In this document: positions 1-49,006 of the stretch, piece after piece | Layout of the letters: every line of letters starts with the position of its first letter | Numbering within the stretch: position 1 is the stretch's first letter | DNA from: an uncultured Chromatiales bacterium | Lineage (GTDB): Bacteria > Pseudomonadota > Gammaproteobacteria > DATFLL01 | Length of the DNA stretch: 64,000 nucleotides | Direction: 5' to 3' | NCBI GenBank assembly: GCA_964561765.1 | Contig: CAZLQI010000011.1 | Span: 5,955-69,954 of the forward strand | Program-made: the position numbers and the translations under genes | The notes under the pieces: model-generated | Told to the model about the DNA's origin: nothing | Databases searched by the model: none | What the model saw: the letters and a program-made list of their open reading frames with translations, nothing else

Positions 1-637
1 CCGCGACGACCTGTTCATTCAGCGCGATCGGTAGGCTGGCATTGCCCTTTCCCAGGAAACCAATATTCATCGGCAGATCTTCAGCCGCCTGCAACATACG
101 ATGGATGTACCATGGGCCCGGTGTACAGGTAGTGGCATTGGTGCCAGCAGCTGGTCCCGTGCCGCCACCAAGCATGGTCGTGATACCAGACATTAACGCC
201 TCGTCCACCTGCTGCGGACAGATGAAGTGGATGTGCGCGTCTATACCACCGGCAGTAACGATCAACCCCTCGCCAGCGATGATCTCGGTGCCAGGACCGA
301 TAATAATGTCTACGGATGGTTGAATGTCGGGGTTTCCAGCCTTGCCAATACCAGCGATGCGTCCAGCCTTGAGACCAATGTCAGCTTTGACCACGCCCCA
401 CCAGTCGAGAATCAACGCATTGGTAATAACAGTGTCGACCACCTCGGCAGCGGGGCGCTGGCTCTGTCCCATCCCGTCACGAATGACTTTGCCGCCGCCG
501 AACTTGACCTCTTCACCATACACGGTGCGGTCTTCCTCGACTTCGATGACCAGCGCCGTATCGGCCAGACGCACACGGTCACCAACAGTAGGGCCATACA
601 TCTCCCCGTAGGCACGGCGATCTATCGTTCGGCTCAT
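1..637 (-). CDS. ureC: Urease alpha subunit (5' part; runs off window)
   Basis: Manual translation from ATG at 637: [27 protein letters not shown]...[17 protein letters not shown]...[14 protein letters not shown] (Ni-ligand His pair); ATGA overlap with ureB stop. Confidence 0.97.
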
Positions 638-945
638 GAATCCAGTGCTCCCATGATCTGGCCGTTAAAACCATAAACTATGCGCGCACCGGATAGTGCG
701 ACCAGTTCGACCTCACGCACCTGCCCGGGCTCGAAGCGCACCGTAGTACCGGCTGGAATGTTGAGGCGGAAGCCACGCGCGGCTTCGCGCTCAAAGGCCA
801 GAGCTGCGTTGGTTTCATAGAAATGGTAGTGCGAACCTATCTGGATAGGCCGGTCTCCAGTGTTGGCGACGTCCAGCACGCGCGTCTCACGCCCTGCGTT
901 AATCTCGATCCTGCCCTCGGCAGGCAACAGCTCTCCGGGAATCAT
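634..945 (-). CDS. ureB: Urease beta subunit
   Basis: MIPGE...[17 protein letters not shown]...[17 protein letters not shown]; start placed at second Met. Confidence 0.97.
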
Positions 946-953
946 GAGTATCG

Positions 954-1397
954 TCACCATTTTCGGTAAGGTAGGAATTTCCCATTGTAGGTAATCTTCA
1001 CGCGATCGCCCTTGGGGTCGGATATGCGTTCAACGTTTAACTCAAAATCGATCGCGCTCATGATTCCGTCCCCGAATTCTTCATGGATCAGCGTTTTGAT
1101 AGTGCTGCCGTAGACTTGGGCGATCTCGTGCAAGCGGTAGCACAGCGGGTCGGTCGGTATCGTAGGATCCAGAGACCCCTTGAGAGGACATTCGATCAGA
1201 AGGGCAATACAGGCTGTATCGAGTCCTAGAAGCTCGACCGCAGCACACGCCTCATCCTCGTTCATGGATTGCTGCCCCAGCAGTGCGGAGGTAACCCATA
1301 CCGGATGGCGGCCAACCGTTGCGGCGATCTGTTTCCAGCTCAATCCCTTGGCGCGCTTGGCCTCGAGTACAGCAGTAGTGACATCTTCACGGATCAT
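954..1397 (-). CDS. cynS: Cyanate hydratase (cyanase)
   Basis: 147 aa; [17 protein letters not shown]...[15 protein letters not shown]...[14 protein letters not shown] with catalytic Arg/Glu/Ser equivalents. Confidence 0.96.
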
Positions 1398-1420
1398 GGT
1401 ATATCGCCTCGGAATGCGGC

Positions 1421-1723
1421 TCAGGGAATGGGTTGGTGCACGGTCACCAGCTTGGTACCATCAGGGAAGGTGGCCTCAACCTGCACCTCAGAGATCATTT
1501 CAGGCACGCCGTCCATAACATCTTCGCGCGTGAGCAACGTGGTGCCGTAGTCCATCAGTTCGGCGACGCTGCGCCCTTCGCGTGCACCTTCCAGGGTGGC
1601 AGCAGAGATATAGGCCACCGCTTCGGGATAGTTGAGTTTGAGTCCGCGTGCCTTGCGTCGTTCAGCGACCAGTCCGGCAGTGAAGAGCAACAGTTTATCT
1701 TTTTCTCGCGGTGTCAGTTCCAT
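1421..1723 (-). CDS. ureA: Urease gamma subunit
   Basis: 100 aa [12 protein letters not shown]...[10 protein letters not shown]...[20 protein letters not shown]. Confidence 0.97.
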
Positions 1724-1740
1724 AGTCTTGTCCGGTATCT

Positions 1741-2586
1741 TCAGGTAGCCCAGATACGCGGTGCGCATGCGGCGCGACCGAATACCACAGGTCGTAGTGC
1801 CTCCCACAGTCGCACGAACCAAGCGTGGGCATATCGTACCTGTGGCCCAAGATAACGTGCCACTAATAGGCCGTCAATAATGCTCACACCAGCGATCCCA
1901 ACGTGTGGCTCCCCGGCCCTATCACAGATCGCCTCGCCAGCGAGCGCATCGAAGCCTGCCACCGTACATAGCAACGTCGCGGTCACCGGCTGACCTTGTA
2001 ACCCCCATAGCGCGGCGAGTTGTGTTGCACCACCTTCCAGTAACAATCGCTCACTCAGTAGCGGCAATCCATCGTGCTCGACGTTGAGATATTGTTCGAA
2101 ACGCCCGGTCTCGAAATACTTGCCCGCCGCAGGTCGGCCCAGACAAATGATTTCCCAGCCAAGGTAACGCGCCGTACCCTTGAGGCTGATGCGCGTTTCC
2201 AAGCGGGTCCGGCTACCGGTATAGAGAATCGTCTCCTGCGGCAACCACTCCAGCGCAGCGTCGTCGGCAACGCTAAATCGCTGGCACACGTGGACTTCGC
2301 CCGTGGTGCGGTAAACCTTGCCCGCCCCCGGTGTGGTAATGAGTGCATGAGCACCCGGGGAGACCTCGACGATAAGCTCCAACGTGTCGCCCCCCACCAG
2401 ACCGGCTGGTGGGTGCAGCAAATAGCTGTGACATACCTCACCTTGAGGGTGTGCGCCCTCAGGAAAAAAGGGTCGCTGTACCAGCAGCGGACCGATGTGA
2501 CGTCGATGAATCGGCACGGTCCGCCCGGCGCTGGGTGCATAGCCCAACTCAAGCCGCGCGTGCCAACCTTCCGTTGCCTGCATCAA
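1741..2586 (-). CDS. ureD: Urease accessory protein UreD
   Basis: [43 protein letters not shown] motifs; directly upstream of ureA. Confidence 0.95.
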
Positions 2587-3338
2587 CTAACCTCCAAGTG
2601 TTTACGAATCACGCTATCGTCGAGCGCCTCCATGCGCCCGCCGGCAACGATCTTGCCACGATCGAGAATACTGTAGACGTGGCCTATCTGGCGTGCAAAC
2701 CCGATTTTCTGCTCCACCAGCAACACGCTCAGACCCCGCTTGCGATTGAGCTCAGTCACCACACTGCGGATCAATGTCACTAAATTGGGTTGAATACCTT
2801 CGGTTGGTTCGTCGAGAATCAACAATTTTGGTCGCCCCATAAGCGCGCGTGCGATGGCCAACTGCTGCTGTTGTCCGCCGGATAGATTACCACCGCGACG
2901 GCGCAACATGCGTTTGAGATCGGGGAAATAGTCAAACAACTCAACAGGTATCTCAGGATTGCGTTCCCCGGTGGCGAAACCACCAATCCGGATGTTTTCC
3001 TCAACCGTTAACTGTGGCAGAATTTCGCGGCCTTGCGGCACGAAACCAAACCCCAGTTGAGCACGGCAGTGGGTTGGTATGGCATCAATAGACTCGCCAT
3101 TCCAGTACATATGGCCACTCCAAGTCGACAACAGACCCATTACCGCGCGCAGCATCGTTGTCTTGCCCACACCATTGCGCCCGAGCAGACAAGTGACCTC
3201 GCCTTGCTTCACGCTGAGCCTTACACCCCTGAGCACGGTGGTGGAACCGTAACCCGTCACTAGATCATGCACCTCCAGAAGCGGTCTGATGCCAATCTTT
3301 GGTGTCTGCTCGATAAATACATTGGGCTCAGTGCTCAC
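2583..3338 (-). CDS. urtE: Urea ABC transporter ATP-binding subunit UrtE
   Basis: Walker A GRNGVGKT, VPQGREI, LSGGQQQQLAIARAL, DEPTEGIQP; operon position. Confidence 0.92.
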   Translation of the reverse strand: MSTEPNVFIEQTPKIGIRPLLEVHDLVTGYGSTTVLRGVRLSVKQGEVTCLLGRNGVGKTTMLRAVMGLLSTWSGHMYWNGESIDAIPTHCRAQLGFGFVPQGREILPQLTVEENIRIGGFATGERNPEIPVELFDYFPDLKRMLRRRGGNLSGGQQQQLAIARALMGRPKLLILDEPTEGIQPNLVTLIRSVVTELNRKRGLSVLLVEQKIGFARQIGHVYSILDRGKIVAGGRMEALDDSVIRKHLEVS

Positions 3339-4081
3339 GCCGCCTCCTCACCGAGATAGACTTTGCGTACTTGGGCATTGGCACTGACAAAATCGAAATT
3401 ACCTTCCGCCAGCAACTTCCCCTGATGCAGCACTAAAACCCGATCGGCGATGCTGCGCACGAACGCCATATCGTGCTCGATCACCAAGACGCTATGTGCA
3501 CGCGTGAGTTCACGCAGCAGCGATGCAGTCGCATCGATTTCTTCCTGGGTCATTCCCGCGATTGGCTCATCCAGAATCAACAAACGCGGGCGCATGCCCA
3601 AGACCATAGCGATTTCTAGCCACTGTTTTTGCCCGTGACTGAGCACCTGTGCTTTGTTCCGTGCGTGCCTTGCCAGGCCGGTTTGCGTGAGCAGATCGTC
3701 GATAAACTGGCGCTGCCCGGGCGACTCACGCCCCAACAATGCCGCACGCAGAGTTTTTTCCGGCTGCGTGGCGAGGCGCAGATTCTCTTCAAGAGTTAGG
3801 TCAGGGAATACACTTGGTGTTTGAAACTTACGCGCGATACCTACCCGTGCGATGCTATGTTCCTGCCAGTGTGTGATATCTGCACCATCAAAAAGTACGC
3901 TACCCGAAGCAGACCGCGTACGACCGGTCACCACGTCTACAAATGTCGTCTTGCCTGCGCCATTAGGTCCAATGGCTACGGTCAATTCATCCTCGCGGAT
4001 ACTCAGACTGAGATCATCGATCGCACGAAAACCGTCGAATTCCACGGTAATGTTGAAGACTTCGAGGATATCCCGGTTCAC
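3335..4081 (-). CDS. urtD: Urea ABC transporter ATP-binding subunit UrtD
   Basis: GPNGAGKT, RKFQTPSVF, LSHGQKQWLEI, EHDM; GTG start at 4081 overlaps urtC stop (GTGA). Confidence 0.92.
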   Translation of the reverse strand: MNRDILEVFNITVEFDGFRAIDDLSLSIREDELTVAIGPNGAGKTTFVDVVTGRTRSASGSVLFDGADITHWQEHSIARVGIARKFQTPSVFPDLTLEENLRLATQPEKTLRAALLGRESPGQRQFIDDLLTQTGLARHARNKAQVLSHGQKQWLEIAMVLGMRPRLLILDEPIAGMTQEEIDATASLLRELTRAHSVLVIEHDMAFVRSIADRVLVLHQGKLLAEGNFDFVSANAQVRKVYLGEEAA

Positions 4082-5184
4082 GTACGTTTTCTCCTGTACA
4101 GAAGATCGAACAGACCAACGATTCCGCGAGGAAACACTAACACCACCAGTACGAACAGGCCACCCATGAAATACAGCCAAACGGTCGCGAAACTGCTGGC
4201 CAGATAGTATTGTGCATATTGCACCAACAATGCGCCGATCACCGCACCGATCACGCTGCCACGTCCGCCGATGGCAACCCAGATGACCATGGTAATCGAA
4301 GGAACCACACCGAGCATATTGGGTGTAATGATGCCATTTTGAGGCACATACAAGGCGCCAGCAACACCGGCCAGCGCGGCAGCCAGCGCAAATATAAACG
4401 CCTGGAATACCGCCGGGTTATAGCCCAGGAAACGCAGGCGATTTTCACCATCGCGTACTGCGCGCAACACCGCGCCGAATGAGGAATGGGTAAGCCACCA
4501 TACCAACGCGAGCGCACCAATTAGCGCGATCACAGTCACCAGATAAAGTGCTGTGTAGGTGCTGTTGTCATAAAACGAGTGTCCGAGGATTGAGGTGTAG
4601 TTGGTCAACCCGGAACTGCCTCCGGTAAAACTCTGGCGTTCCAGCGCCAGGGTAGAGAACGCAACCGCTAACGCCTCAGTGAGGATCGAGAAATACACGC
4701 CCTTGATGCGACTGCGAAAGATGATGAGCCCGAATACGAACCCGATTAGCCCCGGAACCACGAGCACGAACAGCAAAGCGAACCAGAAATTGCGGCTCAG
4801 TTCCCACATCCAAGGCAGATGCGTCACTCCGCTGTACATCATGAAATCGGGAACGCCGCCCACCGCCAGTCCCTGTGTTTTCAGGTAGAAGGCCATCAGG
4901 TAGCCGCCGATACCGAAAAACACCGCCTGTCCAAGACTGAGAATTCCCGCATATCCCCAGATGAGATCGAGGCCGACGGCGAGAATCGCCATGGCCAGAA
5001 ACTGGCCCAGCAAATTCAATGAGGTCGGCCCCAGATACAGGGGTGCACTCAGTGCGGCAAGAGCGAGCCCTACCCAGACTAATGCTGGCAGCCGCACCCG
5101 GCTGAGAGGGCGACGCCCAGGCAGCTCCAACCCTTCCTCAACCGCTGGCATAAGCGACATATTCTCAGAATCCAGCGTACGCAT
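4078..5184 (-). CDS. urtC: Urea ABC transporter permease UrtC
   Basis: LDLIWGYAGILSLGQAVFFGIGGY, RSRIKGVYFSI, AVRDGENRLRFLGY, WVAIGGRG. Confidence 0.92.
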   Translation of the reverse strand: MRTLDSENMSLMPAVEEGLELPGRRPLSRVRLPALVWVGLALAALSAPLYLGPTSLNLLGQFLAMAILAVGLDLIWGYAGILSLGQAVFFGIGGYLMAFYLKTQGLAVGGVPDFMMYSGVTHLPWMWELSRNFWFALLFVLVVPGLIGFVFGLIIFRSRIKGVYFSILTEALAVAFSTLALERQSFTGGSSGLTNYTSILGHSFYDNSTYTALYLVTVIALIGALALVWWLTHSSFGAVLRAVRDGENRLRFLGYNPAVFQAFIFALAAALAGVAGALYVPQNGIITPNMLGVVPSITMVIWVAIGGRGSVIGAVIGALLVQYAQYYLASSFATVWLYFMGGLFVLVVLVFPRGIVGLFDLLYRRKRT

Positions 5185-6095
5185 CAGTCGAGTGCCCGGT
5201 TACGGGAGGGGAAAATACCCCCTGGGCGCATTTGCAGCGCCAGAATGATCAGGGTGAATACTGCTACTTTAGCCTCGGTCGAATTGGTAAAAAATTCCAG
5301 TATGGAATGGGTCTCTCCAATAACGAATGCCCCCAACAGGGTACCAAACAGACTCCCAACGCCACCGAGTACGACGACCATGAAAGCATCGATAATGTAA
5401 TGCTGACCCGTGGTTGGTCCGATAGAACCGATCAGAGACAAACCCACGCCGGCCACACCAGCCACACCGGAACCCAGCGCAAACGTCAGCATATCGATAC
5501 GTCGTGGAGAAATACCAAATGATGCCGCTGTCGCACGATTTTGCATGGCGGCGCGTATCTGCAGGCCTGAACGACTATAGTGCAGAAACAACAGTACACC
5601 GACAAATACCACGGCCACCAGCGCCAATATATACAGGCGCGCATAGGGCAGTCGCAGTACGCCCAGCGTAACCCCACCGGATAACCATTGAGGAGTTTGC
5701 ACCGCCACGTTGTTCGAACCGAATAGGTTTCTGAATACCTGCTGCAAAATCAGCGAAACACCCCAGGTGGCGAGCAATGTCTCCAACGGGCGACCGTAAA
5801 GAAAACGCACCACAACCCACTCCAGTACCAGACCGAGAAGTGCCGCGCACACGAATGCTACCGGAATCGCCAGCAAGTATGTCCACGAAGCCGCCGCCGC
5901 GCCTCCCATCTTGAACAACGCACCCTGGGTCAGATAGGTCGCATAGGCACCGGCGGTCATCAGCTCGCCATGCGCCATGTTGATCACCCCCATGAGGCCA
6001 AAAATGATGGCCAGACCCAGTGCCATCATCAGCAAAATGGAGAAATAACTCAGGCCATTGAATAACTGGCTTGCCATCGCCACGGTGTTCATCAC
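5184..6095 (-). CDS. urtB: Urea ABC transporter permease UrtB
   Basis: GLAIIFGLMGVINMAHGE, LYGRPLETLLATWGVSL, FMVVVLGGVG. Confidence 0.92.
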   Translation of the reverse strand: MMNTVAMASQLFNGLSYFSILLMMALGLAIIFGLMGVINMAHGELMTAGAYATYLTQGALFKMGGAAAASWTYLLAIPVAFVCAALLGLVLEWVVVRFLYGRPLETLLATWGVSLILQQVFRNLFGSNNVAVQTPQWLSGGVTLGVLRLPYARLYILALVAVVFVGVLLFLHYSRSGLQIRAAMQNRATAASFGISPRRIDMLTFALGSGVAGVAGVGLSLIGSIGPTTGQHYIIDAFMVVVLGGVGSLFGTLLGAFVIGETHSILEFFTNSTEAKVAVFTLIILALQMRPGGIFPSRNRALD

Positions 6096-6108
6096 ACTTC
6101 TCCTGTGT

Positions 6109-6135
6109 CACGGGGCCTGCTTGTCAGGCCCCGTG
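6109..6135 (-). other. Intercistronic hairpin between urtA and urtB
   Basis: CACGGGGCCTG-cttgt-CAGGCCCCGTG 11-bp stem; position fits an mRNA-stabilising or attenuating hairpin after a binding-protein gene. Confidence 0.55.
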
Positions 6136-6157
6136 TTCTGTCAGAAACCGGTGGGGT

Positions 6158-7423
6158 TCAGGTACTGTGTTTGACCAGGCCACCCTTGGGCCAGTCGCAC
6201 ATCATATCTGAAACATACGGGCTGTACGGCTGTGGCTCGACCGGCTTGTCCGTATTCCACACTTCCTCGAACATGCCATCCGGCCGAATCTTGCCAACAC
6301 GCACGATCTGCGACATGTTCTGATTTTCCTTGCTGACCTGCACTGCACCCTGCGGCGCGTCGAAACTGAAGGTGGAAACTGCGGCACGTACCTTGTCGGG
6401 AGCGAAACTGCCGGCTTTCTCCACCGCCTTGGCCCATAGATAGACATTCAGATAACCGTGCTCTATGGGATCATCGGTAACGGAATCCTGACCGTAGGCA
6501 TCCTTATAGGCTTTGATGAAGGCCTTGTTCTGCGACGTATTGGTGGTCATAAAATAATTCCAACAGGCATAATGTCCTGCGCAGTATTGCGGACCGATGC
6601 CCTGGATTTCCACCTCGGCGATACTGGTGGACATGATCGGCAGTTTCTCCGGAGTCAACCCGGCTTGCTGGAACTGTTTAAAGAAGGCGACATTACTGCT
6701 GCCGTTGAGCGTGTTGTACACCACGTCGGCGTCAGAATACTTTATTTTGTCGATAATCGTGGCGAACTCCATGTGCCCCAGTGGCGCGTATTCCACGCCC
6801 GCAGTCTTTCCACCCAGCGCCTTGATTTGAGCCTGAATGATAGCGTTGGCGGTGCGCGGAAACACGTAGTCGGAACCGATCAGAAAGAACTTCTTGCCTT
6901 TGTTCTTCAACAGCCATTCCACAGAAGGCTCGATCTGCTGATTGGGGCAAGCGCCCGTATAGATGATATCGTGTGAGCACTCCATACCTTCATACTGCAC
7001 CGGGTACCAGAGCAGGTTGCCGTAATGTTGTACCACCGGCAATACGGCCTTACGGCTAGCTGAAGTCCAGCAGCCGAAGATTGTGGTCACGTGATCCTCG
7101 GTAATCAACTTCTTAGCTAGACGCGCGAATGTCGGCCAATCCGAGGCGCCATCAACCACAATCGGCTCTATCTTGCGCCCGAGTACACCACCCTTGGCAT
7201 TGATCTCATTGATTGCCAGAAGTTCAGCATTCTTCACCGGAATTTCACTGATTGCCATGGTCCCGGAGAGCGAATGCAGATCACCTACCTTTACCGTTTC
7301 TGCACTGGTTCCACCCTTCCATAGCGCTTCAGCACTGGCGGTTGTGAATCCGCCTATGAGTGGATAGGCTGCAGCGCCAACAACGGCGGCTCCTGCTCTC
7401 TTGAGAAAGTTTCTACGTTTCAT
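6158..7423 (-). CDS. urtA: Urea ABC transporter substrate-binding protein UrtA with Tat signal
   Basis: MKRRNFLK twin-arginine leader; [48 protein letters not shown]. Confidence 0.94.
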
Positions 7424-7580
7424 TTCATGCTCCTGACGGTGATAGTGATAGATAGATAACGGCTGGTTGATCTCAGTGTGTTGCACCCAGACAGCAGCGA
7501 AACCCCGGCCTCATTACACGTCTCTTAGCTGATATCTATATTCGATCCAGGCAAACAGCAGATTTGTTAACCACTCAGTC

Positions 7581-7598
7581 AGGCATAAACTATGCCAA
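7581..7598 (-). promoter_or_regulatory. sigma54 (-24/-12) promoter of the urt-ure-cyn operon
   Basis: Minus strand TTGGCATAGTTTATGCCT = GG-N10-GC. Confidence 0.7.
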
Positions 7599-7701
7599 TA
7601 ATTTAACGCCTTATATTTCCTGAGATTCTGTTCCACACACATCAAGGAACATGCGCTTATCTCGCCACACCGTCTCCATATGGTGCGCGGCCATCTGTGG
7701 T

Positions 7702-7718
7702 TGCACTAAATTTGTGCG
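7702..7718. promoter_or_regulatory. NtrC-type enhancer site
   Basis: TGCAC-TAAATTT-GTGCG matches TGCAC-N7-GTGCA, about 105 bp upstream of the sigma54 motif; a weaker site ends TGGTGCG at 7681-7687. Confidence 0.7.
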
Positions 7719-7849
7719 TTAATGCACAACGCGATCTTCTCTTTGGTATGGCCAGATCGACAAAACAGAATGTACTGCAGCAGCATCAAAGCCAGAAGAT
7801 GAGAGCTCACGATCAAGAATATTCCGAGTTCAAAAAAAGGAAGTAGTTA

Positions 7850-8112
7850 AGGATGGCATGCGTGCTGAGCGCAGATTTGGCAAACAGGGTCTGCCCGAGA
7901 CCCCTGCAGAAGCGTGCGATGGAAGGCGTGCTGGAAGAAGCGTAAAGCCGTCGCTGCCGATCTCTGCGGATCTACACCTCAAGCAACGTGGGTCAAGCCT
8001 GAACAGGCCCTGGAGTGTTTCTCAGAAAGGTGGGACAGCAAGTACCCCGGCAAGCGACCGACCCGGCACTCTGTTTGGGTATGCCTGACAGTATTCTTCG
8101 ATTTCCCGCCGG
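7850..8112 (+). pseudogene. IS256-family transposase remnant
   Basis: WKKRKAVAADL...EQALECFSERWDSKYP...W..LTVFFDFPP resembles an internal IS256 transposase segment; truncated and degenerate. Confidence 0.7.
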
Positions 8113-8121
8113 GCGTGGCCC

Positions 8122-8973
8122 TTACCAGACATACCCTACGCTCAGCGAGAGATAACGCGTGGTGCTACGTGGCGCTGCATCCTGTGTCACACCACCTTCC
8201 AGGTAGATCTGCACGGGATCAAAACGGTAAAGTATCGTCGTGGCAGCATAGGTGTTGGATGCACTACCATCAATGGCAGAGATATAGTGTGACCACACCA
8301 ACGATACATCAGCAGGGCTGAAACTGTAACCCAGTTCCAGTCGCGCACTGCGTTTCAGGAAACCCTGCGTCAAGACCAGCGTAGCAGAAGAAAAGACACG
8401 CGCCGCACGTTGTGAGCCCAGTATGGAAGGGTCCCGTGAGTAATTGTAGATGTGCACGTCGGCATTCCAGAACCACTTGCCGAAACCATTGTAGGCCAGC
8501 GCACCACCCAAGCCGGTGCTGCCCAGTGTCGCCTGTCTTCGCAGAAACCGCGGGGCAGCATAGAGGTGTATGCGTCGATACTCGGGCAGCAGACGCAGTG
8601 ACCAGCCCCCTGATACATAGGCCACCGCCAGTTTGAGCGCCTGCGTTTCCAGCTCGCCAGCATGGCCCCAGTAAGCGTACTGCAGTGCGACATGAACCGG
8701 TGCGCGTCGATCGGTGTCGAAACCAATCGACCAGTATCGTGTATCGGTACCGCCCGGTGGGGCGTTGGACCGTGTCGTGCTGGCACTCAGCAACAGCGTG
8801 GCCCCCTTGGGCGGGCCCACGTTGAGATCCAGCCCCCTAGTGTCGGTGCCCATCGTATCGTGGGAGGTATCAAACCAGATCGAGCTTGCCATGGCATTTG
8901 TCAGTGGCACTCCGCACAGCACACACAGCAGGCATAGATACAGACCAAACCCCGGTGCCTTGCGGCGCCGCAC
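8122..8973 (-). CDS. Putative outer-membrane beta-barrel protein
   Basis: Probable GTG start giving signal peptide MRRRKAPGFGLYLCLLCVLCGVPLTNAMA; alternating amphipathic strands; C-terminal YLSLSVGYVW; start uncertain. Confidence 0.6.
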   Translation of the reverse strand: MRRRKAPGFGLYLCLLCVLCGVPLTNAMASSIWFDTSHDTMGTDTRGLDLNVGPPKGATLLLSASTTRSNAPPGGTDTRYWSIGFDTDRRAPVHVALQYAYWGHAGELETQALKLAVAYVSGGWSLRLLPEYRRIHLYAAPRFLRRQATLGSTGLGGALAYNGFGKWFWNADVHIYNYSRDPSILGSQRAARVFSSATLVLTQGFLKRSARLELGYSFSPADVSLVWSHYISAIDGSASNTYAATTILYRFDPVQIYLEGGVTQDAAPRSTTRYLSLSVGYVW

Positions 8974-9139
8974 GCAAACAGTGCCGATACTCGCCACGCC
9001 ATGCCCCCTTGCAAATACACGCGTTTTCAGGTGCCACCGACGACGAACGACACGACGGCGTTCCCCCCTGAATACGGTGACTCTCGGGACATTAACGCAG
9101 CACGCGCGCAGCGGTTGACCGGCATGGTCAAATTTTATA

Positions 9140-9355
9140 TCAGTCCTTCTTTTCCTGTGCCTCGACCACCTCTGCAACACCGGGTATCACTGGCTGTGGT
9201 GCTGTCTCGGAGGCACTGTCGTCCTTGACTGCTGCGCGAAAGCCTTTTACCGCCGCTCCCAGATCGCCGGCCACATTGCGCAGACGCTTGGTGCCGAAAA
9301 CGACAATCACGATGGCCAGCACCACCAGCCAGTGCCAGATACTGAATTCACCCAT
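9140..9355 (-). CDS. tatA: Twin-arginine translocase TatA/E subunit
   Basis: [40 protein letters not shown]. Confidence 0.93.
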
Positions 9356-9890
9356 GGTCTCATCCTGCATTAAGTAGAAAAACGTAAATATTCACCCTTG
9401 GACATGGCGTTCCCGCTACATCGAAGGACTCCTGTGAGGACAAATCAGCGTGGTGACGTACCCTCGACGCACAGACGGAAAACGCGCAGTGTGAGCTGAT
9501 GGCAGCCTGAATATAGGCCGGATGTATTTGCCACTCAATTGCCCCGAAGGAAACCGTTCCAGAGCCATGAGTGACACGTTAATGGCCGCCAGACACCTGC
9601 CCGCTCTGGATACTTGTGACTACGCCAGAGGCGACAAGCGTTCCGACAATCTGTCGTCCCCAGACCGACGGGCCATCATACACCCCGCACGGCTGGCCTG
9701 CAGCGGATGGCCGCAGAACCCGGCCTCACTCGGCCACGGGCACAATGACAAGATTGTGCCCACGAACACGCCTTGCGCCAACACCCGCCTCTGCGGCACA
9801 CAGGTGGCACACTTCGAGCCGCGCCAGGGTGTTCAACCCTGGCGACCCGCCGTTCATTTGGACCCCCCACCCGCCATCGGCGGCCGGGGA

Positions 9891-10088
9891 TCATTGCGGA
9901 TTACTGAGATTGGTCTCGAAATTCGTGCCCGGATTTTCCACTTCAATATCCATATAGGCCTGTCGGGTTTCTTCCGACTCGAAGTAGATCTTGATGGCGG
10001 TATCCCCTTCACCCTCAACGATAAACGGGTGCTTCTCGGGACTCGGTATGTCGTGCAGGGTAATGGGGTCAGTGGTACTTACCATCAT
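9891..10088 (-). CDS. Small acidic hypothetical protein (YHS-like pattern lacking Cys)
   Basis: RBS GAGGGAGGA upstream; TDPIT...HPFIVEG...IYFESEETRQAY. Confidence 0.65.
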   Translation of the reverse strand: MMVSTTDPITLHDIPSPEKHPFIVEGEGDTAIKIYFESEETRQAYMDIEVENPGTNFETNLSNPQ

Positions 10089-10601
10089 GGCGGCGTCCTC
10101 CCTCGTCATGGAGGCACAAGCGATCCGCGCGGTAGCCGCATCGCCATACTCCCAACCTCGCATGCGACCCGCAGGCCGGAAGGCAGGCCTACGCAGTTGG
10201 CCTGATTCCAATCATCCCGGTTCAGGCCATTCACTGAAAAACACATGATAAGCGTACCTTTCAGCGCCTCCCCTTCAATGTACAGGGTTACTTAAAGTGT
10301 AGAAGATCAGCGGGCAAAAACAAGCCTACTGGCGCAACAGTTCGACAACGCGCCCGGTATGCTCGACGCGAGAAAACAGGCGGCATAAAATGGGCCCGGC
10401 GTGGCATACCGAGCGTCCGCGACGACCTGAACACTCGCCCGCTCACGCGGCCTTCACCGAGGATGCCCCTTTATCAGAGGGTCAGAAAGTGCATGTTGGG
10501 GCCAGTGGCAGGCGTCTACTGCGCCTCACTGCGGATTCAACGCAGCAATACGTGCAGGATCATCACCGACACACACTGGAACGAGCAACCGGACCCGCAC
10601 C

Positions 10602-25285: not shown

Positions 25286-25503
25286 GCCACACGGCTCACC
25301 ACACACCGGATCCCCGACGCCCCGCACGCGGATCACCCTGTGCTCAGCGAGGCATCTGTCGGACTATGGACCCGCTGAAGTGGGTGCTACCATAGATGCG
25401 CACGCATCGCTGCGGTGTGGCTGAAACGTCCTCACCACATCGGCTGCCCGGCATCCTGATTCAGGTACGGGCGGTAGTGCCACTTTGTCTGCGAGGTTCG
25501 ACC

Positions 25504-26121
25504 CTGTCCACCCTGACACTCAAGGCCGTGCGCGTATTGCATGTCGGCCCCATCGATTTATCCCTCTCTGTGGGCGAGTGCGTCTGTCTGTCCGGTGCAT
25601 CGGGGGTGGGCAAGAGTCTGTTGTTGCGAGCCGTGGCCGATCTCGTGGTGCATGACGGCGAAGCCTACCTGGATGACGCACCCTGCCAGGGTATGAATGC
25701 GCCGCAGTGGCGCCGGCAGGTGGGCCTGTTACCGCCCGAGAGCGCCTGGTGGTTCGAGCGGGTGGGCGAACACTTTCCCGCAGGTAATGGGGAGAATGAC
25801 GTACTGCACGGCGCCTTCGCGCAGCTTGGCTTCAAGGCCGGGACACTCGACTGGGAGGTGGCGCGCTGTTCGAGTGGTGAGCGCCAACGCCTTGCCCTGC
25901 TGCGTCTGCTGGCACAGGGGCCACGAGCATTGCTGCTCGATGAACCCACCGCCAGCCTCGACCCGAAGTCCGTGGCCCGAGTTGAAGCTATGGTGACACG
26001 CTACCGGAAGGAGCACGCCGCGCCCGTGTTGTGGGTCAGTCACGATCCGGCGCAGATCGAACGCATGGCCACGCAACACCTGATCATGGGCGAGGACGGA
26101 CAGTTGGAGCGGGCGGCATGA
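25504..26121 (+). CDS. ABC ATPase (FetA/YbbL-like); start uncertain (CTG 25504, GTG 25477 or ATG 25396)
   Basis: GASGVGKS, SSGERQR, LLLDEPTASLD, WVSHD. Confidence 0.8.
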   Translation: MSTLTLKAVRVLHVGPIDLSLSVGECVCLSGASGVGKSLLLRAVADLVVHDGEAYLDDAPCQGMNAPQWRRQVGLLPPESAWWFERVGEHFPAGNGENDVLHGAFAQLGFKAGTLDWEVARCSSGERQRLALLRLLAQGPRALLLDEPTASLDPKSVARVEAMVTRYRKEHAAPVLWVSHDPAQIERMATQHLIMGEDGQLERAA

Positions 26122-26930
26122 ACATGACTACGCTGAGTACCCTGGACCTTGCCCTGGCCGCCTTGCTGGTGCTTGCCCTGGCCGGATTGTCACGCTGGCA
26201 GCAGCTTGGCGTCGGTCGGCGCCTGATCATCGCTGCGGCACGCACGGCGGTCCAGTTGACCCTGATCGGACTGGTTCTCAAGGTACTGTTTGCCCATGCG
26301 CAACTGCTCTGGATCGGCCTGATGGCCGCCGTCATGCTGGCGGCGGCAGGGCGCGAGGTGATGGCGCGCCAGACACAGCGTTTTACCGGCTGGTGGGGCT
26401 ATGGGCTGGGCACGCTGGCAATGTTCGTCTCCAGCTTCAGCGTCTTGATCCTGGTGTTGGTGGTGATCATTGCCAACCGGCCCTGGTATGAGCCGCAGTA
26501 TGCGATCCCGCTGCTGGGCATGATGCTCGGCAATACCATGAACGGGGTAGCGCTGAGTCTGGATCGCCTCACCGAATCGGCCCGTACCCGGCGCGGTGCC
26601 ATCGAGGGGAGGCTGTGCCTCGGTGAGGACTGGCATGTCGCCATTCGTGACATTCGCCGCGACAGTATGCGCATCGGAGTGTTACCCATCATCAACGCCA
26701 TGGCCGCAGCCGGTCTTGTCAGCCTGCCAGGCATGATGACCGGTCAGATACTCGCCGGTTCACCGCCGGTCGAGGCGGTGAAATACCAGATCCTGATCAT
26801 GTTCATGATTGCCGCAGGCACCGGGTTAGCGACCCTGCTGGCCGTGCAGGTGGGTGCCCGGCGTCTGTTCGATGAACGTCAGCGTTTGCGGTTGGACCGG
26901 CTGACAGCACCGGCAAAAAACGGTGCCTGA
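26118..26930 (+). CDS. ABC permease (FetB/YbbM, UPF0014 family)
   Basis: RTAVQL, PQYAIPLLGMMLGN, GLVSLPGMMTGQILAG..PVEAVKYQI. Confidence 0.88.
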   Translation: MNMTTLSTLDLALAALLVLALAGLSRWQQLGVGRRLIIAAARTAVQLTLIGLVLKVLFAHAQLLWIGLMAAVMLAAAGREVMARQTQRFTGWWGYGLGTLAMFVSSFSVLILVLVVIIANRPWYEPQYAIPLLGMMLGNTMNGVALSLDRLTESARTRRGAIEGRLCLGEDWHVAIRDIRRDSMRIGVLPIINAMAAAGLVSLPGMMTGQILAGSPPVEAVKYQILIMFMIAAGTGLATLLAVQVGARRLFDERQRLRLDRLTAPAKNGA

Positions 26931-26968: not shown

Positions 26969-27841
26969 TCAATCTGATACGGCCTCGCTGAACAGCGCCT
27001 CGTAGAGGAAATTCGGCGCACACATCGAGGCGGTATGGATGGCATGGTTGTAATAGTGGGTCTGGAACGGCTTGTCGCGCGCGTCCTCTTCGCGAAAACC
27101 GCTCAGAGTGGTGTCGCGCCGCGCCAGGGTGGCCGACCACCAGCCAGAGGGATACACGGGCTGGGGGAAGTGCAAGGTCAAGGTATCAAGGTAGCCAGCA
27201 GCGCGCATGTCCTGGTGCATACGCTGGATCAGGGGTAGATGCAGCAGGGGAGATTCACTTTGCTGGACGAGGATGCCATCCGCGCCCAGCGCCTTGAAGC
27301 AGTCCTGGTAAAAGGGCCTCTGGAACAGGCCCTCGGCGGGGCCGATGGGATCGGTGCTATCGATGATGATGACATCATAGTGCCCGGGAGCAGCCTCCTG
27401 GACCCATTTGATGCCATCGACAAAACGCAGTTCGGCGCGCGGATCGCCGTTGGACGCACACAGCTCGGGGAAAAACTGCTCGGAAAGGCGAGTGACACGC
27501 TCGTCGAGCTCCACCTGCTGGGCGTGTTCCACGCCAGGGTGTTTGAGCACCTCGCGCAGGGTGCCACAATCACCGCCACCGATGATAAGGACGTTCTTCG
27601 GCGCAGCGTGAGTAAACAACGCCGGGTGGGACATCATCTCGTGGTAGAGAAAGTTGTCACGGGTGGAGAGCATGACATAGCCATCGATGGCCATCACATT
27701 GCCCCAGTCTTCGGTTGCGTAGATGCTGATGCGCTGGTAGGCGCTGTGTTCTTCGTGGAGCTTGGCCTTGATCCTGAAGGAGAAGGCGCAACCCGCGGCC
27801 TCGTGGACCTCGGTGAACCAGTGTGTGTCGTCCAGCACCAT
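26969..27841 (-). CDS. speE: Polyamine aminopropyltransferase (spermidine synthase)
   Basis: YHEMMSH, VLIIGGGDCGTLRE, DVIIIDSTDPIGP. Confidence 0.94.
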   Translation of the reverse strand: MVLDDTHWFTEVHEAAGCAFSFRIKAKLHEEHSAYQRISIYATEDWGNVMAIDGYVMLSTRDNFLYHEMMSHPALFTHAAPKNVLIIGGGDCGTLREVLKHPGVEHAQQVELDERVTRLSEQFFPELCASNGDPRAELRFVDGIKWVQEAAPGHYDVIIIDSTDPIGPAEGLFQRPFYQDCFKALGADGILVQQSESPLLHLPLIQRMHQDMRAAGYLDTLTLHFPQPVYPSGWWSATLARRDTTLSGFREEDARDKPFQTHYYNHAIHTASMCAPNFLYEALFSEAVSD

Positions 27842-28016
27842 GGGTGGCTCCTGTGTGCGGCGTGGCGGAAAAGCAGACCCCAAAGGGTAAAAGATATGGC
27901 CAGAGGGAACAAGCGCGCAGGGGCGAATGCGCCGGGGTTTTATCCACGCGCGTTTATTCTCGTGCGCAAATCTTTCATACTCGTGGCCCCTGTCACGCTA
28001 CCGGTAACTACCAAGC

Positions 28017-29921
28017 ATGTCTGAGTGGACCACACGCGATGCCTGCAAAACCTACAATATCCTCCACTGGGGCGGGGGCTATTATGATATCGATGCCGGA
28101 GGGTATCTGTGCGCGCGCCCCGATCGTGATGACACTCACCCTGGGGTGAACCTGTATGCCCTGGCCAGGGACATGCAGCGCCAGGGGCTGTCCCTGCCAT
28201 TGTTGGTGCGCTTCCCCGGCATCCTGCGCGATCGAGTCGATACCCTGTGCGGCGCCTTTGCCCAAGCTATGGATGCGCTGAGCTACACCGGCGGGTTTAC
28301 GGCAGCATATCCCATCAAGGTCAACCAGCAACGGCGCGTGGTTGAGGATATCCTGCACAACAACCGGGGCCGGGTCGGCCTAGAGGCAGGCAGCAAGCCG
28401 GAACTGCTGGTAGTCATGGCGCTGTCCGAACCCGGTGGTATCGTCATTTGTAACGGTTACAAGGATCGTGAATACATCCGCCTGGCGCTGATCGGCCGCG
28501 CCTTGGGCCTGCGTGTCCACATCGTGGTGGAAAAGCGCTCCGAGCTGGCATTGATCCTCCAGGAGTCCCGACGCATGGGCGTGGCACCGCTCATCGGCGT
28601 GCGCGTGCGCCTGTCCTCCCTGGGCGCGGGCAAGTGGCAGAACACCGGCGGCGAGAAGGCCAAATTCGGTCTCTCGTCCACACAGCTCCTGGAGATGGTC
28701 GAACACCTGCGTACCGAGGGCATGCTCGATGCGCTGCAACTGCTGCACTGTCACATGGGCTCGCAGATCGCCAATATCCAGGACATCCAGCGCGGTATGC
28801 GCGAGTGCGCACGCTATTTCGCCGAGCTGTGTCACCTCGGCGCACCGATCGGCATCATGGACGTCGGTGGTGGTCTGGGCGTGGACTACGAAGGCACCCG
28901 TTCGCGCAGCTTCTGTTCGATGAACTACAACGTGCAGGACTACGCCAACAACGTGATGCACAGCCTGTGGACGGTGTGCGAGGAACAGGGTCTGGTCCAA
29001 CCGCATGTCATCAGCGAATCGGGCCGCGCATTGACGGCCCACCACGCGGTGCTGATCGTCAATGTGATCGACGTGGAGAGGACACCGGGCGAGGTGGCGC
29101 CAGCGGCACCCGTCGCCGAAGAACCGCCGGTCATCACCCATCTGCGTGAGGCCTTGGCCAGTCTGCAACCAACACCACACGGCACACCACGCTCAGCGCT
29201 GGAGGTCTACCACGATGCCGTGCACTGGCTGGGCGAGGCGCAGACCGGGTACACCCACGGTGTACTCGGTCTGGCGCAGCGCGCCCAGGCAGAACGAATC
29301 TACTTCGCCATCTGCTGGCGTGTGCGTCGACGCCTGCAACCGGGTGCGCGAGCACACCGCGAGGTACTCGACGCACTCGATGCCAAGCTTGCCGACAAGT
29401 ATTTCTGTAATTTCTCTCTGTTCCAGTCCCTACCAGACGTGTGGGCCATCGACCAGATATTCCCGGTCGTACCCCTGCACCGCCTCGACGAGGCGCCCAC
29501 CCGGCGTGCGGTGCTGGAGGACATCACCTGCGACTCGGACGGGCGCATCGATCACTATGTCGATGCCGAGGGCATCGAGGCCAGCCTGCCGTTGCACGCA
29601 CCACGTGAGGGCGAACCCTATCTGCTCGGCCTGTTCATGATCGGTGCCTACCAGGAAATCCTCGGCGATATGCACAACCTGTTCGGCGATACCAATGCGG
29701 TACACGTGGAGGTCACCGCACAGGGCCACCACAAGGTGGTCGATACCCTTCGCGGCGACACGGTGGATGCGGTGCTCGACCATGTCCACTTTGATGCCAC
29801 GGATCTGATGGCACGCTATCAGGCCAAACTGGCGCTGGCCGCCCTGGATGAGCCAGTGCGTGCGCGCTTTGTCGAAGCGTTGGCCGCAGGTCTGCAGGGC
29901 TACACCTATCTGGAAGACTGA
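28017..29921 (+). CDS. speA: Biosynthetic arginine decarboxylase
   Basis: YPIKVNQ (PLP Lys), GLEAGSKPE, CNGYKD, DVGGGLGVDY, DITCDSDG, GAYQEILGDMHNLFG. Confidence 0.96.
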   Translation: MSEWTTRDACKTYNILHWGGGYYDIDAGGYLCARPDRDDTHPGVNLYALARDMQRQGLSLPLLVRFPGILRDRVDTLCGAFAQAMDALSYTGGFTAAYPIKVNQQRRVVEDILHNNRGRVGLEAGSKPELLVVMALSEPGGIVICNGYKDREYIRLALIGRALGLRVHIVVEKRSELALILQESRRMGVAPLIGVRVRLSSLGAGKWQNTGGEKAKFGLSSTQLLEMVEHLRTEGMLDALQLLHCHMGSQIANIQDIQRGMRECARYFAELCHLGAPIGIMDVGGGLGVDYEGTRSRSFCSMNYNVQDYANNVMHSLWTVCEEQGLVQPHVISESGRALTAHHAVLIVNVIDVERTPGEVAPAAPVAEEPPVITHLREALASLQPTPHGTPRSALEVYHDAVHWLGEAQTGYTHGVLGLAQRAQAERIYFAICWRVRRRLQPGARAHREVLDALDAKLADKYFCNFSLFQSLPDVWAIDQIFPVVPLHRLDEAPTRRAVLEDITCDSDGRIDHYVDAEGIEASLPLHAPREGEPYLLGLFMIGAYQEILGDMHNLFGDTNAVHVEVTAQGHHKVVDTLRGDTVDAVLDHVHFDATDLMARYQAKLALAALDEPVRARFVEALAAGLQGYTYLED

Positions 29922-41940: not shown

Positions 41941-42261
41941 TCAGCGATCCCCGATGGGCAGAGCCACGGACACTTCACTGATAAAGATCCAGCCCGCCTC
42001 AGGTTGGCCCGTACGCCCATGCGCCTGAATAATACCCACAGCCTGTGCCGTAGTGTTTTCATCATTACAGAACAACTCGAGTTTCACTTCGGTAATCACC
42101 TCACTGCCAAACTCAATGGAGTAATCCTGCTCTTTACTGCTTAGGGCATTCAGAATGCCCTTGACGTCAATCACTGACAGATTGCGGTATCCCGCGGCTC
42201 GCAAGGCGCGTACCACATCCGCTATCCGGTTACGATGAACAAAGGCCTTGATCTCTTTCAT
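41941..42261 (-). CDS. PII-like protein associated with metal efflux
   Basis: MKEIKAF...LSVIDVKG...KLEL...GRTGQPEAGWIFISEV; ATGA overlap with RND pump stop. Confidence 0.88.
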   Translation of the reverse strand: MKEIKAFVHRNRIADVVRALRAAGYRNLSVIDVKGILNALSSKEQDYSIEFGSEVITEVKLELFCNDENTTAQAVGIIQAHGRTGQPEAGWIFISEVSVALPIGDR

Positions 42262-45350: not shown

Positions 45351-45369
45351 GCCTGCATCCCCTGTATAT

Positions 45370-46572: not shown

Positions 46573-46575
46573 TAT

Positions 46576-47871: not shown

Positions 47872-47957
47872 GATCTGAATCCTTTGCGTGGAAAAAAATA
47901 GGCAACCGCTGGCCCACATCGACAGCGCGGCCGATGTGGTATCAAGTTGAGCGGGAT

Positions 47958-48338: not shown

Positions 48339-48488
48339 GACAACGAAAACTTAACATATGCTCCGACATATGGCAACACCCCCAGGCACACTCTCAGGCA
48401 AACGGGGCTACCGACAGGCATGGCAGATCAACAATGTGCTTTACGTGATAGTGATCAACATAGCGTTATTACACCCATCGGAGCTGTC

Positions 48489-48923: not shown

Positions 48924-48945
48924 CGCTTCATCTCTCCGACGGGAC

Positions 48946-48976
48946 TTGACCCTGTAGTAGATACAGACTGTTTACT
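48946..48976 (+). promoter_or_regulatory. MerR-type promoter/operator for cadA
   Basis: TTGACC-19 bp-TTTACT with dyad CTGTA-gtaga-TACAG in the spacer. Confidence 0.75.
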
Positions 48977-49006
48977 AGGGTCATGGTTCCCGGAGACTCC
49001 TCGGTT

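What the first reader, a model, noticed from the sequence alone, without database searches (positions are those of the whole stretch)
1..7423. Cyanase embedded among the urease structural genes (urtABCDE-ureD-ureA-cynS-ureB-ureC)
Seen: an intact cynS lies between ureA and ureB on the same strand, with gaps of only 23 and 8 bp, and no cynR, cynT, cynX or cynABD in the window. Known: urea decomposes spontaneously to cyanate, which carbamylates proteins; cyanase and urease both release ammonium; cynS normally lies with cynT/cynX or with nitrite/nitrate/cyanate transport genes; some proteobacteria carry unrelated ORFs between ureA and ureB. Inference: one urea-plus-cyanate nitrogen-scavenging unit in which cyanase is made alongside the urease subunits. 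It could detoxify urea-derived cyanate, or this Urt transporter could also import cyanate. I do not recall a described ureA-cynS-ureB arrangement.
Basis: partly seen in the sequence, partly recalled or inferred. Interest (0 to 1): 0.75.

Follow-up and report, generated by a model that had tools for sequence, protein, structure and literature searches.

The report
Cyanase gene inside a urease operon
An intact cyanase gene really does sit between two urease subunit genes in a urea-uptake and urease operon; one genus was already reported to have this layout in 2022, and this survey finds it in several unrelated bacterial lineages.

Summary
On the minus strand the window carries urtABCDE-ureD-ureA-cynS-ureB-ureC. 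The gaps flanking cynS are 23 and 8 bp. The cluster continues off the window as ureE-ureF-ureG-nicO. CynS is full length, scores above the NCBIfam cyanase cut-offs and keeps the catalytic Arg/Glu/Ser.

The layout is not new. Boase et al. 2022 (PMC9062700, section 20 read) describe cynS between ureA and ureB in all Acidihalobacter genomes and propose acid buffering.

- The window's genome belongs to a different family from the Acidihalobacter-like genome G363.
- A third family of the class has ureA-cynS-tauE-ureB.
- In a Rubrobacterales sample, 13 of 18 cynS places are urease-linked.
- A single origin of all embedded CynS is rejected (p-AU 0.0085).
- The ureA|ureB junction is a general insertion site: 12 of 93 pairs have gaps over 400 bp.

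Most likely cynS is co-transcribed with the urea-scavenging genes and removes cyanate that accompanies urea and carbamoyl metabolism. I found no expression data and no cyanate transporter. Verdict: a further member of a published operon variant, of modest interest.

The parts
6158..7423 (-). urtA, urea ABC transporter substrate-binding protein
   Evidence: TIGR03407 554.8 bits against a cut-off of 492.75; PF13433 517 bits; start at 7423 read
5184..6095 (-). urtB, permease
   Evidence: TIGR03409 388.7 bits against a cut-off of 250.3
4078..5184 (-). urtC, permease (the true start may lie downstream of 5184)
   Evidence: TIGR03408 388 bits against a cut-off of 296.2; the match begins at residue 49
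3335..4180 (-). urtD, ATPase (the true start is probably near 4070)
   Evidence: TIGR03411 329.4 bits against a cut-off of 304.1; the match begins at residue 38
2583..3338 (-). urtE, ATPase
   Evidence: TIGR03410 305.7 bits against a cut-off of 285.8
1741..2586 (-). ureD, urease accessory protein
   Evidence: PF01774 178.3 bits; no NCBIfam match
1421..1723 (-). ureA, urease gamma subunit
   Evidence: TIGR00193 180.1 bits, NF009712 174.9 bits
954..1397 (-). cynS, cyanase, 147 aa, catalytic R88/E91/S114 present
   Evidence: NF002773 210.1 bits, TIGR00673 187.1 bits; aligned to PDB 1dw9, E 1.8e-37; the three residues are invariant in 9 CynS sequences
634..945 (-). ureB, urease beta subunit
   Evidence: NF009682 169.8 bits over residues 1-102 of the 103-aa form
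1..637 (-). ureC, urease alpha subunit, first 212 codons. The gene continues past the window start and is 568 aa in the contig. It is followed there by ureE, ureF, ureG and a NicO-type nickel transporter.
   Evidence: NF009686 365.7 bits; contig stretch L148 and Pfam hits UreE, UreF, cobW/UreG and NicO
7583..7597 (-). sigma-54-type -24/-12 motif (TGGCAT-N5-ATGC) in the intergenic region about 160 nt upstream of urtA; candidate operon promoter
   Evidence: The pattern is not enriched in the window as a whole (28 matches against 21.25 expected), so only its position speaks for it. The genome has rpoN and an ntrC equivalog.

Best explanation
cynS is a working cyanase gene fixed inside one long urea-utilisation operon (urtABCDE-ureD-ureA-cynS-ureB-ureC-ureE-ureF-ureG-nicO). 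It is most likely transcribed from a nitrogen-regulated (sigma-54/NtrC-type) promoter upstream of urtA. When the cell scavenges urea it makes cyanase at the same time. Cyanase converts cyanate (from the environment alongside urea, or formed inside the cell from urea and carbamoyl phosphate) plus bicarbonate into ammonia and CO2. That salvages nitrogen and prevents carbamoylation of proteins. The urease reaction itself yields CO2/bicarbonate, the cyanase co-substrate, which would explain why no carbonic anhydrase gene is linked as cynT is in E. coli. Shown here: gene identities, order, spacing, intact catalytic residues, and recurrence in other lineages. Inferred: co-transcription, the promoter, the source of cyanate, and the bicarbonate coupling.
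For: The gaps of 23 and 8 nt carry Shine-Dalgarno-like motifs, and stop/start overlaps occur elsewhere in the cluster. No terminator-like site lies on the minus strand between ureA and ureB, and no promoter-like site lies between 1723 and 634. CynS scores above the NCBIfam cut-offs, and R88/E91/S114 align with R96/E99/S122 of E. coli cyanase 1dw9 (that these three are the catalytic residues is recalled). cynS has GC3 0.62, like ureA (0.62) and ureB (0.635), so it is not a recent separate insert. A -24/-12 motif lies upstream of urtA, and rpoN and ntrC are in the genome. The genome has no recognisable cyanate importer, which fits cyanate arising internally or entering by another route. Recurrence: G363 has ureD-ureA-cynS-ureB-ureC; G018 has ureA-cynS-tauE-ureB; 4 of the 80 best genome contigs relatives are linked, as are 4 of the 80 best metagenome relatives; 13 of 18 cynS places in 61 relatives of a Rubrobacteraceae genome are linked. 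In every linked locus where the downstream flank was present, cynS sits upstream of ureB, directly or (G018) with tauE between. One clade of all 7 embedded CynS is rejected (p-AU 0.0085). The window's UreA is 79-87% identical to other members of its class but 68-72% to Rubrobacterales, so the insertions look independent. Its presence in Rubrobacterales argues for a role not tied to acidophily (that Rubrobacterales are not acidophiles is recalled).
Against: There is no transcript evidence of any kind. The ureA|ureB junction also takes in cargo with no evident link to urea in the same class sample: whole kdp operons, GNAT acetyltransferases and unknown ORFs. Position alone therefore does not prove a functional tie. 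In the class sample, 22 of the 25 genomes that have both cynS and ureA keep them on different contigs or at least 283 kb apart. The sister-genus genome G001 (91% complete) has a stand-alone cynS, and no urease was found with UreC, PF00547 or PF00699. Uncatalysed breakdown of urea to cyanate is very slow (recalled, not tested), so urea-derived cyanate inside cells may be minor. The sigma-54 pattern is not more frequent than chance in the window.
Confidence: 0.6

Rival explanations
1. Acid buffering (the published proposal for Acidihalobacter). Cyanase consumes protons (OCN- + HCO3- + 2H+ gives NH3 + 2CO2) and, together with urease, raises cytoplasmic pH. On this view the operon is an acid-tolerance module rather than a nitrogen module.
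For: Proposed by Boase et al. 2022 (PMC9062700, section 20). The closest embedded cluster (G363: CynS 81%, UreC 87% identical) has the adiA-speE-arsR neighbours described in that paper. The window carries speE and speA about 19 kb from urtA, plus heavy-metal efflux genes.
Against: The window's cluster is headed by a high-affinity Urt transporter and a sigma-54-type motif, which are typical of nitrogen scavenging. The same gene order dominates in Rubrobacterales (13 of 18 cynS places), which are not known as acidophiles (recalled). The paper itself notes that environmental urea is very dilute.
Confidence: 0.15
2. Passenger at a permissive site. The ureA|ureB junction tolerates foreign genes. 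cynS landed there by chance and persists because a nitrogen-regulated promoter suits any nitrogen-salvage gene, with no biochemical link to urease.
For: 12 of 93 ureA-ureB pairs in the class sample have a gap over 400 bp. Besides cynS, the cargo includes GNAT genes (G228, G377), HupE/UreJ (G315), a 2OG oxygenase plus an unknown ORF (G020), an unknown 484-aa ORF (G286), a porin plus urt genes (G038) and kdp operons (G206, G362). Most genomes with both genes keep them apart (22 of 25).
Against: cynS was captured at the same junction at least twice independently, and probably three times given the class-type urease backbone. It has been kept across a whole Rubrobacterales sample. No urease-linked cynS was seen at any other junction of the urease cluster.
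Confidence: 0.2
3. The Urt transporter also imports cyanate, so the operon is a combined uptake-and-breakdown system for both substrates.
For: The genome has no recognisable cyanate importer, so some other route would be needed if external cyanate is used.
Against: UrtA-E all score as standard urea-transporter equivalogs. G363 and the Rubrobacterales loci have the embedded cynS without an adjacent urtABCDE, so the pairing does not depend on Urt. No binding data exist.
Confidence: 0.04

Closest known systems
Acidihalobacter urease cluster with cynS between ureA and ureB (Boase et al. 2022, Front Microbiol 13:848410, PMC9062700; section 20 and the Fig. 5 legend read)
   Same: The core order ureD-ureA-cynS-ureB-ureC is identical.
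   Different: The window's genome is placed in another family of the class; ArgS is 67% identical to G363 but 76% to the same-family G001. Here urtABCDE lies directly upstream and shares the strand; the paper reports urt only in A. ferrooxydans. The paper called the layout unique to the genus, which this survey shows it is not.
E. coli cynTSX operon with the regulator cynR (recalled)
   Same: The same enzyme family; 1dw9 is the best solved match (E 1.8e-37), and the catalytic residues are conserved.
   Different: There is no linked carbonic anhydrase, no CynX (24.7 bits against a cut-off of 406) and no dedicated operon. cynR was not searched for.
cynABDS-type clusters (ABC cyanate/nitrate-type transporter followed by cynS), as in cyanobacteria and Nitrospirales (PMC12342949, passages read)
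   Same: cynS is the last step of a nitrogen-scavenging transport operon. G038 of the same class has exactly this form: a sigma-54 activator, an NMT1_2 binding protein, a permease, an ATPase and cynS.
   Different: The window's genome has no PF13379 binding protein at all. The transporter in the operon is the urea-specific Urt.
urt-ure clusters with foreign genes between ureA and ureB (for example the acetyltransferase genes of Pseudomonas; recalled)
   Same: The same junction is used. In the class sample, G228 and G377 carry GNAT genes there.
   Different: Here the cargo is a nitrogen-releasing enzyme whose substrate is chemically related to urea.

Membership tests
Cyanase (CynS; TIGR00673, NF002773, PF02560 + PF21291) | Full-length match above the curated cut-offs, with both domains | tested here: met
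   NF002773 210.1 bits (cut-off 150) over 1-147 of 147; TIGR00673 187.1 bits (cut-off 113.3); PF21291 over residues 3-70 and PF02560 over 79-146
Cyanase (CynS; TIGR00673, NF002773, PF02560 + PF21291) | Catalytic Arg96, Glu99 and Ser122 (E. coli numbering; their role is recalled) | tested here: met
   R88, E91 and S114 align with them in the 1dw9 alignment and are invariant in 9 CynS sequences, including all the embedded ones aligned
Cyanase (CynS; TIGR00673, NF002773, PF02560 + PF21291) | Decamer with active sites shared between subunits; bicarbonate-dependent activity | not testable with these tools
Urease operon with embedded cynS (Acidihalobacter type, PMC9062700) | cynS between ureA and ureB, on the same strand, within the ureD..ureC core | tested here: met
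   gaps of 23 and 8 nt
Urease operon with embedded cynS (Acidihalobacter type, PMC9062700) | Close relationship of the embedded CynS to that of the described clusters | tested here: met
   WINDOW and G363 form a pair with SH-aLRT 99. That G363 is an Acidihalobacter is inferred from its neighbourhood only.
Urease operon with embedded cynS (Acidihalobacter type, PMC9062700) | Co-transcription with the urease genes | not testable with these tools
   No RNA holder is listed; the paper gives none either (section 20 read)
UrtABCDE urea ABC transporter | All five components above their NCBIfam equivalog cut-offs | tested here: met
   UrtA 554.8/492.75, UrtB 388.7/250.3, UrtC 388/296.2, UrtD 329.4/304.1, UrtE 305.7/285.8
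E. coli-type cyn operon (cynR-cynTSX) | cynS flanked by the carbonic anhydrase cynT and the permease cynX | tested here: not met
   The flanks are ureA and ureB; the beta-carbonic anhydrases lie on contigs C3 and C6; CynX is below its cut-off
cynABDS cluster | An NrtA/CynA-type binding protein (PF13379) and an ABC transporter next to cynS | tested here: not met
   No PF13379 match in the whole genome, which is 99.78% complete

The most novel reading that the evidence does not exclude
Cyanase acts as a true partner enzyme of urease, not just a co-regulated neighbour. It has been captured at the same ureA|ureB junction at least twice, and probably three times, in two phyla. Possible reasons: urease supplies the bicarbonate/CO2 that cyanase needs; cyanase removes cyanate that would irreversibly carbamoylate the active-site lysine of newly made apo-urease, which must instead be carboxylated by CO2; or it mops up a cyanate side-product of urea breakdown. 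On this reading cynS is, in these lineages, an additional urease accessory gene.
Probability: 0.2. Interest if true: 0.65.

Novelty: new member of a known kind. Interest (0 to 1): 0.3.

Why it matters
The single published report treated the cyanase-in-urease layout as a peculiarity of one acidophilic genus and explained it as acid buffering. A third family has a variant with an extra TauE-type permease. It is also the predominant cynS context in a Rubrobacterales sample. The explanation therefore shifts towards a general link between urea and cyanate metabolism. That link is testable by knock-outs and transcript mapping in cultured Acidihalobacter or Rubrobacter strains. Genome annotators should expect extra genes at the ureA|ureB junction. 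Ecologists who count cynS as a marker of external cyanate use should note that some copies may serve internal detoxification tied to urea use.

Tried and rejected
Expression: the look-up of sequencing runs listed no RNA holder, only one DNA/unknown run kept as contigs. Read laying was therefore not used, and transcription remains untested.

Full 132-row constrained-tree tests did not finish in 300 s. I repeated them on a 47-row subset that I chose myself: 85 rows were dropped, mostly redundant beta/gammaproteobacterial CynS, and the very long L143 row was left out.

Synteny between G001's stand-alone cynS locus and G363's cluster, suggested by shared Pfam families: rejected. The amine oxidase and EamA proteins gave no match, and the GGDEF-EAL protein gave only a 34%, 175-residue domain-level match.

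Whole-cluster transfer between the G363 lineage and the window's lineage: left open. CynS is closer to G363 (81%) than to same-family G001 (70%), and the cluster has low GC3 (0.46-0.64 against 0.70-0.79 in neighbouring core genes). However, the UreC/ArgS identity ratios are similar for G363, G038 and G018, and speA/speE lie near the cluster in both genomes.

Literature: searches found only PMC9062700 describing the arrangement. PMC12342949, PMC7768721 and PMC8886135 (passages read) do not. Subscription-only papers, and supplements I did not open, are not covered.

A first greedy ORF call by length picked antisense ORFs in GC-rich loci. I replaced it with a GC3-weighted choice.

Complex prediction, structure prediction and the large protein-database searches were not used, because no claim here depends on them.
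Full report
**1. The observation.**
The ORF list, Pfam and NCBIfam show ten consecutive minus-strand genes in window 1-7486:
- urtA (6158-7423; the longest ORF reaches 7486)
- urtB (5184-6095)
- urtC (4078-5184)
- urtD (3335-4180)
- urtE (2583-3338)
- ureD (1741-2586)
- ureA (1421-1723)
- cynS (954-1397)
- ureB (634-945)
- ureC (from 637 to the window edge)

The five Urt proteins, UreA, UreB and CynS all exceed their NCBIfam cut-offs. UreD matches Pfam only.

Reading the sequence:
- The ureA stop is followed by 23 nt containing GAGG, 9 nt before the cynS ATG.
- The cynS stop is followed by 8 nt before the ureB ATG (MIPGE...).
- ureB/ureC, urtD/urtE and urtE/ureD overlap by ATGA.

The window starts inside ureC. 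The contig stretch before it (L148) carries the rest of ureC (568 aa), then ureE, ureF, ureG and a NicO-type nickel transporter on the same strand. The unit therefore has 14 genes.

**2. Is cynS intact and alone?**
- CynS (147 aa, P0001) matches cyanase models end to end.
- Its best solved relative is E. coli cyanase 1dw9 (E 1.8e-37).
- Counting along that alignment, E. coli R96, E99 and S122 correspond to R88, E91 and S114 here. That these are the catalytic residues is recalled.
- These three are invariant in an alignment of nine CynS sequences, including six other embedded or related ones.
- The genome (2.65 Mb, 28 contigs, 99.78% complete) has this single cynS.
- It has no PF13379 binding protein, no FNT channel, and nothing above the CynX cut-off.
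- Its two beta-carbonic anhydrases lie on other contigs.

**3. Operon signals.**
- The consensus scan found no terminator-like site on the minus strand between ureA and ureB.
- The only minus-strand promoter-like site lies inside ureD (1877-1849, 9 of 12 matches), and the total number of promoter-like sites was below the shuffle mean.
- In the 635-nt intergenic region upstream of urtA there is a GG-N10-GC motif, TGGCAT-N5-ATGC (7597-7583), with a palindrome upstream of it.
- The pattern is not enriched in the window (28 matches against 21.25 expected), so only its position speaks for it.
- The genome encodes RpoN and an NtrC equivalog (740.5 bits against a cut-off of 558.6).
- No RNA run holds this stretch, so transcription is inferred, not shown.

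**4. Already in print.**
A full-text search for cynS + ureA + ureB led to Boase et al. 2022 (PMC9062700). I read its section 20 and the Fig. 5 legend.
- It states that in all Acidihalobacter genomes a cynS gene lies between ureA and ureB.
- The authors found no other report of this.
- They suggest it may add proton-consuming buffering capacity.
- They report urtABCDE only in A. ferrooxydans.

Six further searches found no other description. Three candidate papers read in passages do not mention it.

**5. Where else it occurs.**

(a) *The window's class.* The organisms that cluster with it in the CynS tree are Pseudomonadota, so it is probably Gammaproteobacteria; this is an inference. In 401 sampled genomes:
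- 54 have a cynS match and 92 of 400 have ureA.
- 25 have both.
- In 3 of those 25 (G000, G363, G018) cynS lies within 300 bp of ureA.
- In the other 22 it is on another contig or at least 283 kb away.

The tallies in (a) and in section 7 include the unpublished genomes G040, G141 and G307.

G363 has ureD-ureA-cynS-ureB-ureC. Two unassigned ORFs, an arginine decarboxylase, a spermidine synthase and an ArsR regulator lie upstream. This matches the neighbourhood described for Acidihalobacter, so G363 is probably that genus or close to it (inference).

G018 has ureD-ureA-cynS-TauE/SafE permease-ureB-ureC-ureE-ureF-ureG. An NMT1-type binding protein and a formamidase follow.

(b) *genome contigs.* Among the 80 best of 595 CynS relatives, 4 are urease-linked, all Rubrobacterales/Rubrobacteraceae MAGs: L010, L011, L015, and L014 with only partial urease hits.

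(c) *Relatives of the genome behind L015.*
- 17 of 61 have cynS, giving 18 places.
- 13 places are urease-linked.
- 9 of these show ureA, cynS and ureB together.
- 2 of the 5 unlinked places lie at contig ends.
- G439, unpublished, is among the unlinked.

(d) *Metagenome contigs.* Among the 80 best of 587 relatives, 4 are linked (L159, L160, L161, L166). 58 of the 80 loci had at least 350 bp on both sides.

In every linked locus where the downstream flank was present, cynS lies upstream of ureB, directly or (G018) with tauE between.

**6. How many origins?**
In a 132-row CynS tree:
- The window pairs with G363 (81% identity, SH-aLRT 99).
- This pair sits in a weakly supported group with G001, a Ktedonobacteraceae MAG, a Terriglobia MAG and Rubrobacter sequences.
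- G018 is far away on a long branch.

AU tests on a 47-row subset:

| Rows held as one clade | p-AU |
|---|---|
| All seven embedded | 0.0085 |
| Six without G018 | 0.019 |
| Those six plus two non-embedded Rubrobacter CynS | 0.30 (not rejected) |

. The groups were defined by the trait, but after a first tree had been seen.

The urease genes themselves are of the class's own type:
- The window's UreA is 79-87% identical to nine non-embedded class members but 68-72% to Rubrobacterales.
- UreC is 87% identical to G363, 79% to G038, 73% to G018 and 70-71% to Rubrobacterales at full length.

So at least two insertions occurred at the same junction. Three are likely: the window/G363 lineage, G018 and Rubrobacterales. 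A transfer of cynS alone between Rubrobacterales and the window/G363 lineage is not excluded.

**7. The junction is permissive.**
I paired the UreA and UreB domain matches in the class sample. Of 97 UreA matches, 93 could be paired with a UreB match and four could not.

| Gap between the matches | Pairs |
|---|---|
| 60 bp or less | 62 |
| 61-150 bp | 7 |
| 151-400 bp | 12 |
| Over 400 bp | 12 |

The 12 long gaps hold:
- cynS (G000, G363)
- cynS + TauE (G018)
- one or two GNAT acetyltransferases (G228, G377)
- HupE/UreJ (G315)
- a 2OG-Fe(II) oxygenase plus an unassigned ORF (G020)
- an unassigned 484-aa ORF (G286)
- a porin-like protein plus urt genes (G038)
- kdpA-kdpB-kdpD plus a response regulator (G206 and G362, same family)
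- one pair with a partial UreA match, not examined (G354)

Position alone is therefore weak evidence of a biochemical tie.

**8. History in this genome.**
- ArgS is 76% identical to the same-family G001 and 67% to G363. CynS shows the reverse order (70% and 81%).
- In G001 (91% complete) no urease was found with UreC, PF00547 or PF00699.
- The cluster's GC3 (0.46-0.64) is below that of neighbouring core genes (0.70-0.79). The contig start, with a PIN/CopG pair, is 41-48% GC against a genome mean of 58.6%.
- This hints at acquisition of the whole cluster.
- However, the UreC/ArgS identity ratios are similar for other class members, and speA/speE lie within about 20 kb of the cluster in both G000 and G363. 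I leave transfer versus vertical descent open.
- cynS has the same GC3 as ureA and ureB, so it came with them.

**9. Mechanism.**
Best reading (0.6): a nitrogen-regulated urea-scavenging operon that also makes cyanase.
- Cyanase turns cyanate plus bicarbonate into ammonia and CO2 (established enzymology; the equation is cited in PMC9062700).
- Urease turnover supplies CO2/bicarbonate.
- This would make a linked carbonic anhydrase unnecessary (inference).
- The lack of any recognisable cyanate importer points to cyanate of internal origin or uptake by an unknown route.

Rivals:
- Acid buffering (0.15). It is weakened by the Urt and sigma-54 context and by the dominance of the layout in Rubrobacterales.
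- A neutral passenger at a permissive site (0.2). It is weakened by repeated capture and long retention.
- Cyanate import by Urt (0.04).

**10. Verdict.**
The arrangement is already published for one genus, so this is a new member of a known kind. The wider distribution and the repeated origin are new but incremental.

Noticed in passing
window 7583-7597 (-) and about 7716-7733: A sigma-54-type -24/-12 motif lies upstream of urtA. Upstream of it is an 18-nt palindrome (TTGTGCA TTAA CGCACAA), a possible activator site. The terminator scan also flagged that palindrome on the plus strand.
   Followed up: partly
L140 (G018:C53) 7164-8012 (-), 913-3292 (-): In G018 a TauE/SafE-family permease sits between cynS and ureB. 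An NMT1-type binding protein and a formamidase follow ureG. Together these form a small-nitrogen-compound island; the permease could be an anion (cyanate?) carrier.
   Followed up: partly
L155 (G206:C22) and L156 (G362:C1): A whole kdp potassium-pump operon (kdpA, kdpB, kdpD and a response regulator, about 8.3 kb) lies between ureA and ureB on the same strand in two genomes of one family.
   Followed up: partly
L154 (G038:C28) 345-6343: A porin-like gene and the urt transporter genes lie between ureA and ureB. The same genome keeps its cynS in a separate cluster: sigma-54 activator, NMT1_2 binding protein, permease, ATPase, cynS (L142).
   Followed up: partly
L015 801-3562: In a Rubrobacteraceae MAG, an arginase-family gene and a sodium:solute symporter directly precede ureA-cynS-ureB. 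This suggests a guanidino-compound or arginine to urea to ammonia route.
   Followed up: no
L014 3977-4439; L160 853-1147; L245, L252: Some Rubrobacterales or metagenome copies show only partial UreB/UreC hits, or a UreA hit split in two (possible frameshift or decay). Two others have about 0.5 kb between ureA and cynS, enough room for another small gene.
   Followed up: no
contig C11:35-747 (L148), just outside the window: A CopG-like antitoxin and a PIN-domain toxin pair sit at the low-GC (41%) contig end beside the nickel transporter, which is consistent with an island edge.
   Followed up: no
window 8122-9180 (-), 9522-10205 (+): Two ORFs (352 and 227 aa) next to the operon's upstream region have no Pfam or NCBIfam match.
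   Followed up: no
window 42258-51337: Heavy-metal resistance genes: a CzcA-type RND pump, a CadR/PbrR-type regulator and a ZntA-type P-type ATPase. Also divergent speE/speA at 26969-29921 and FetAB-like iron efflux genes at 25396-26930.
   Followed up: no
class sample: Urease is about twice as frequent among cynS-bearing genomes (25 of 54) as in the whole sample (92 of 400). The genomes are related, so no statistical test was made.
   Followed up: no
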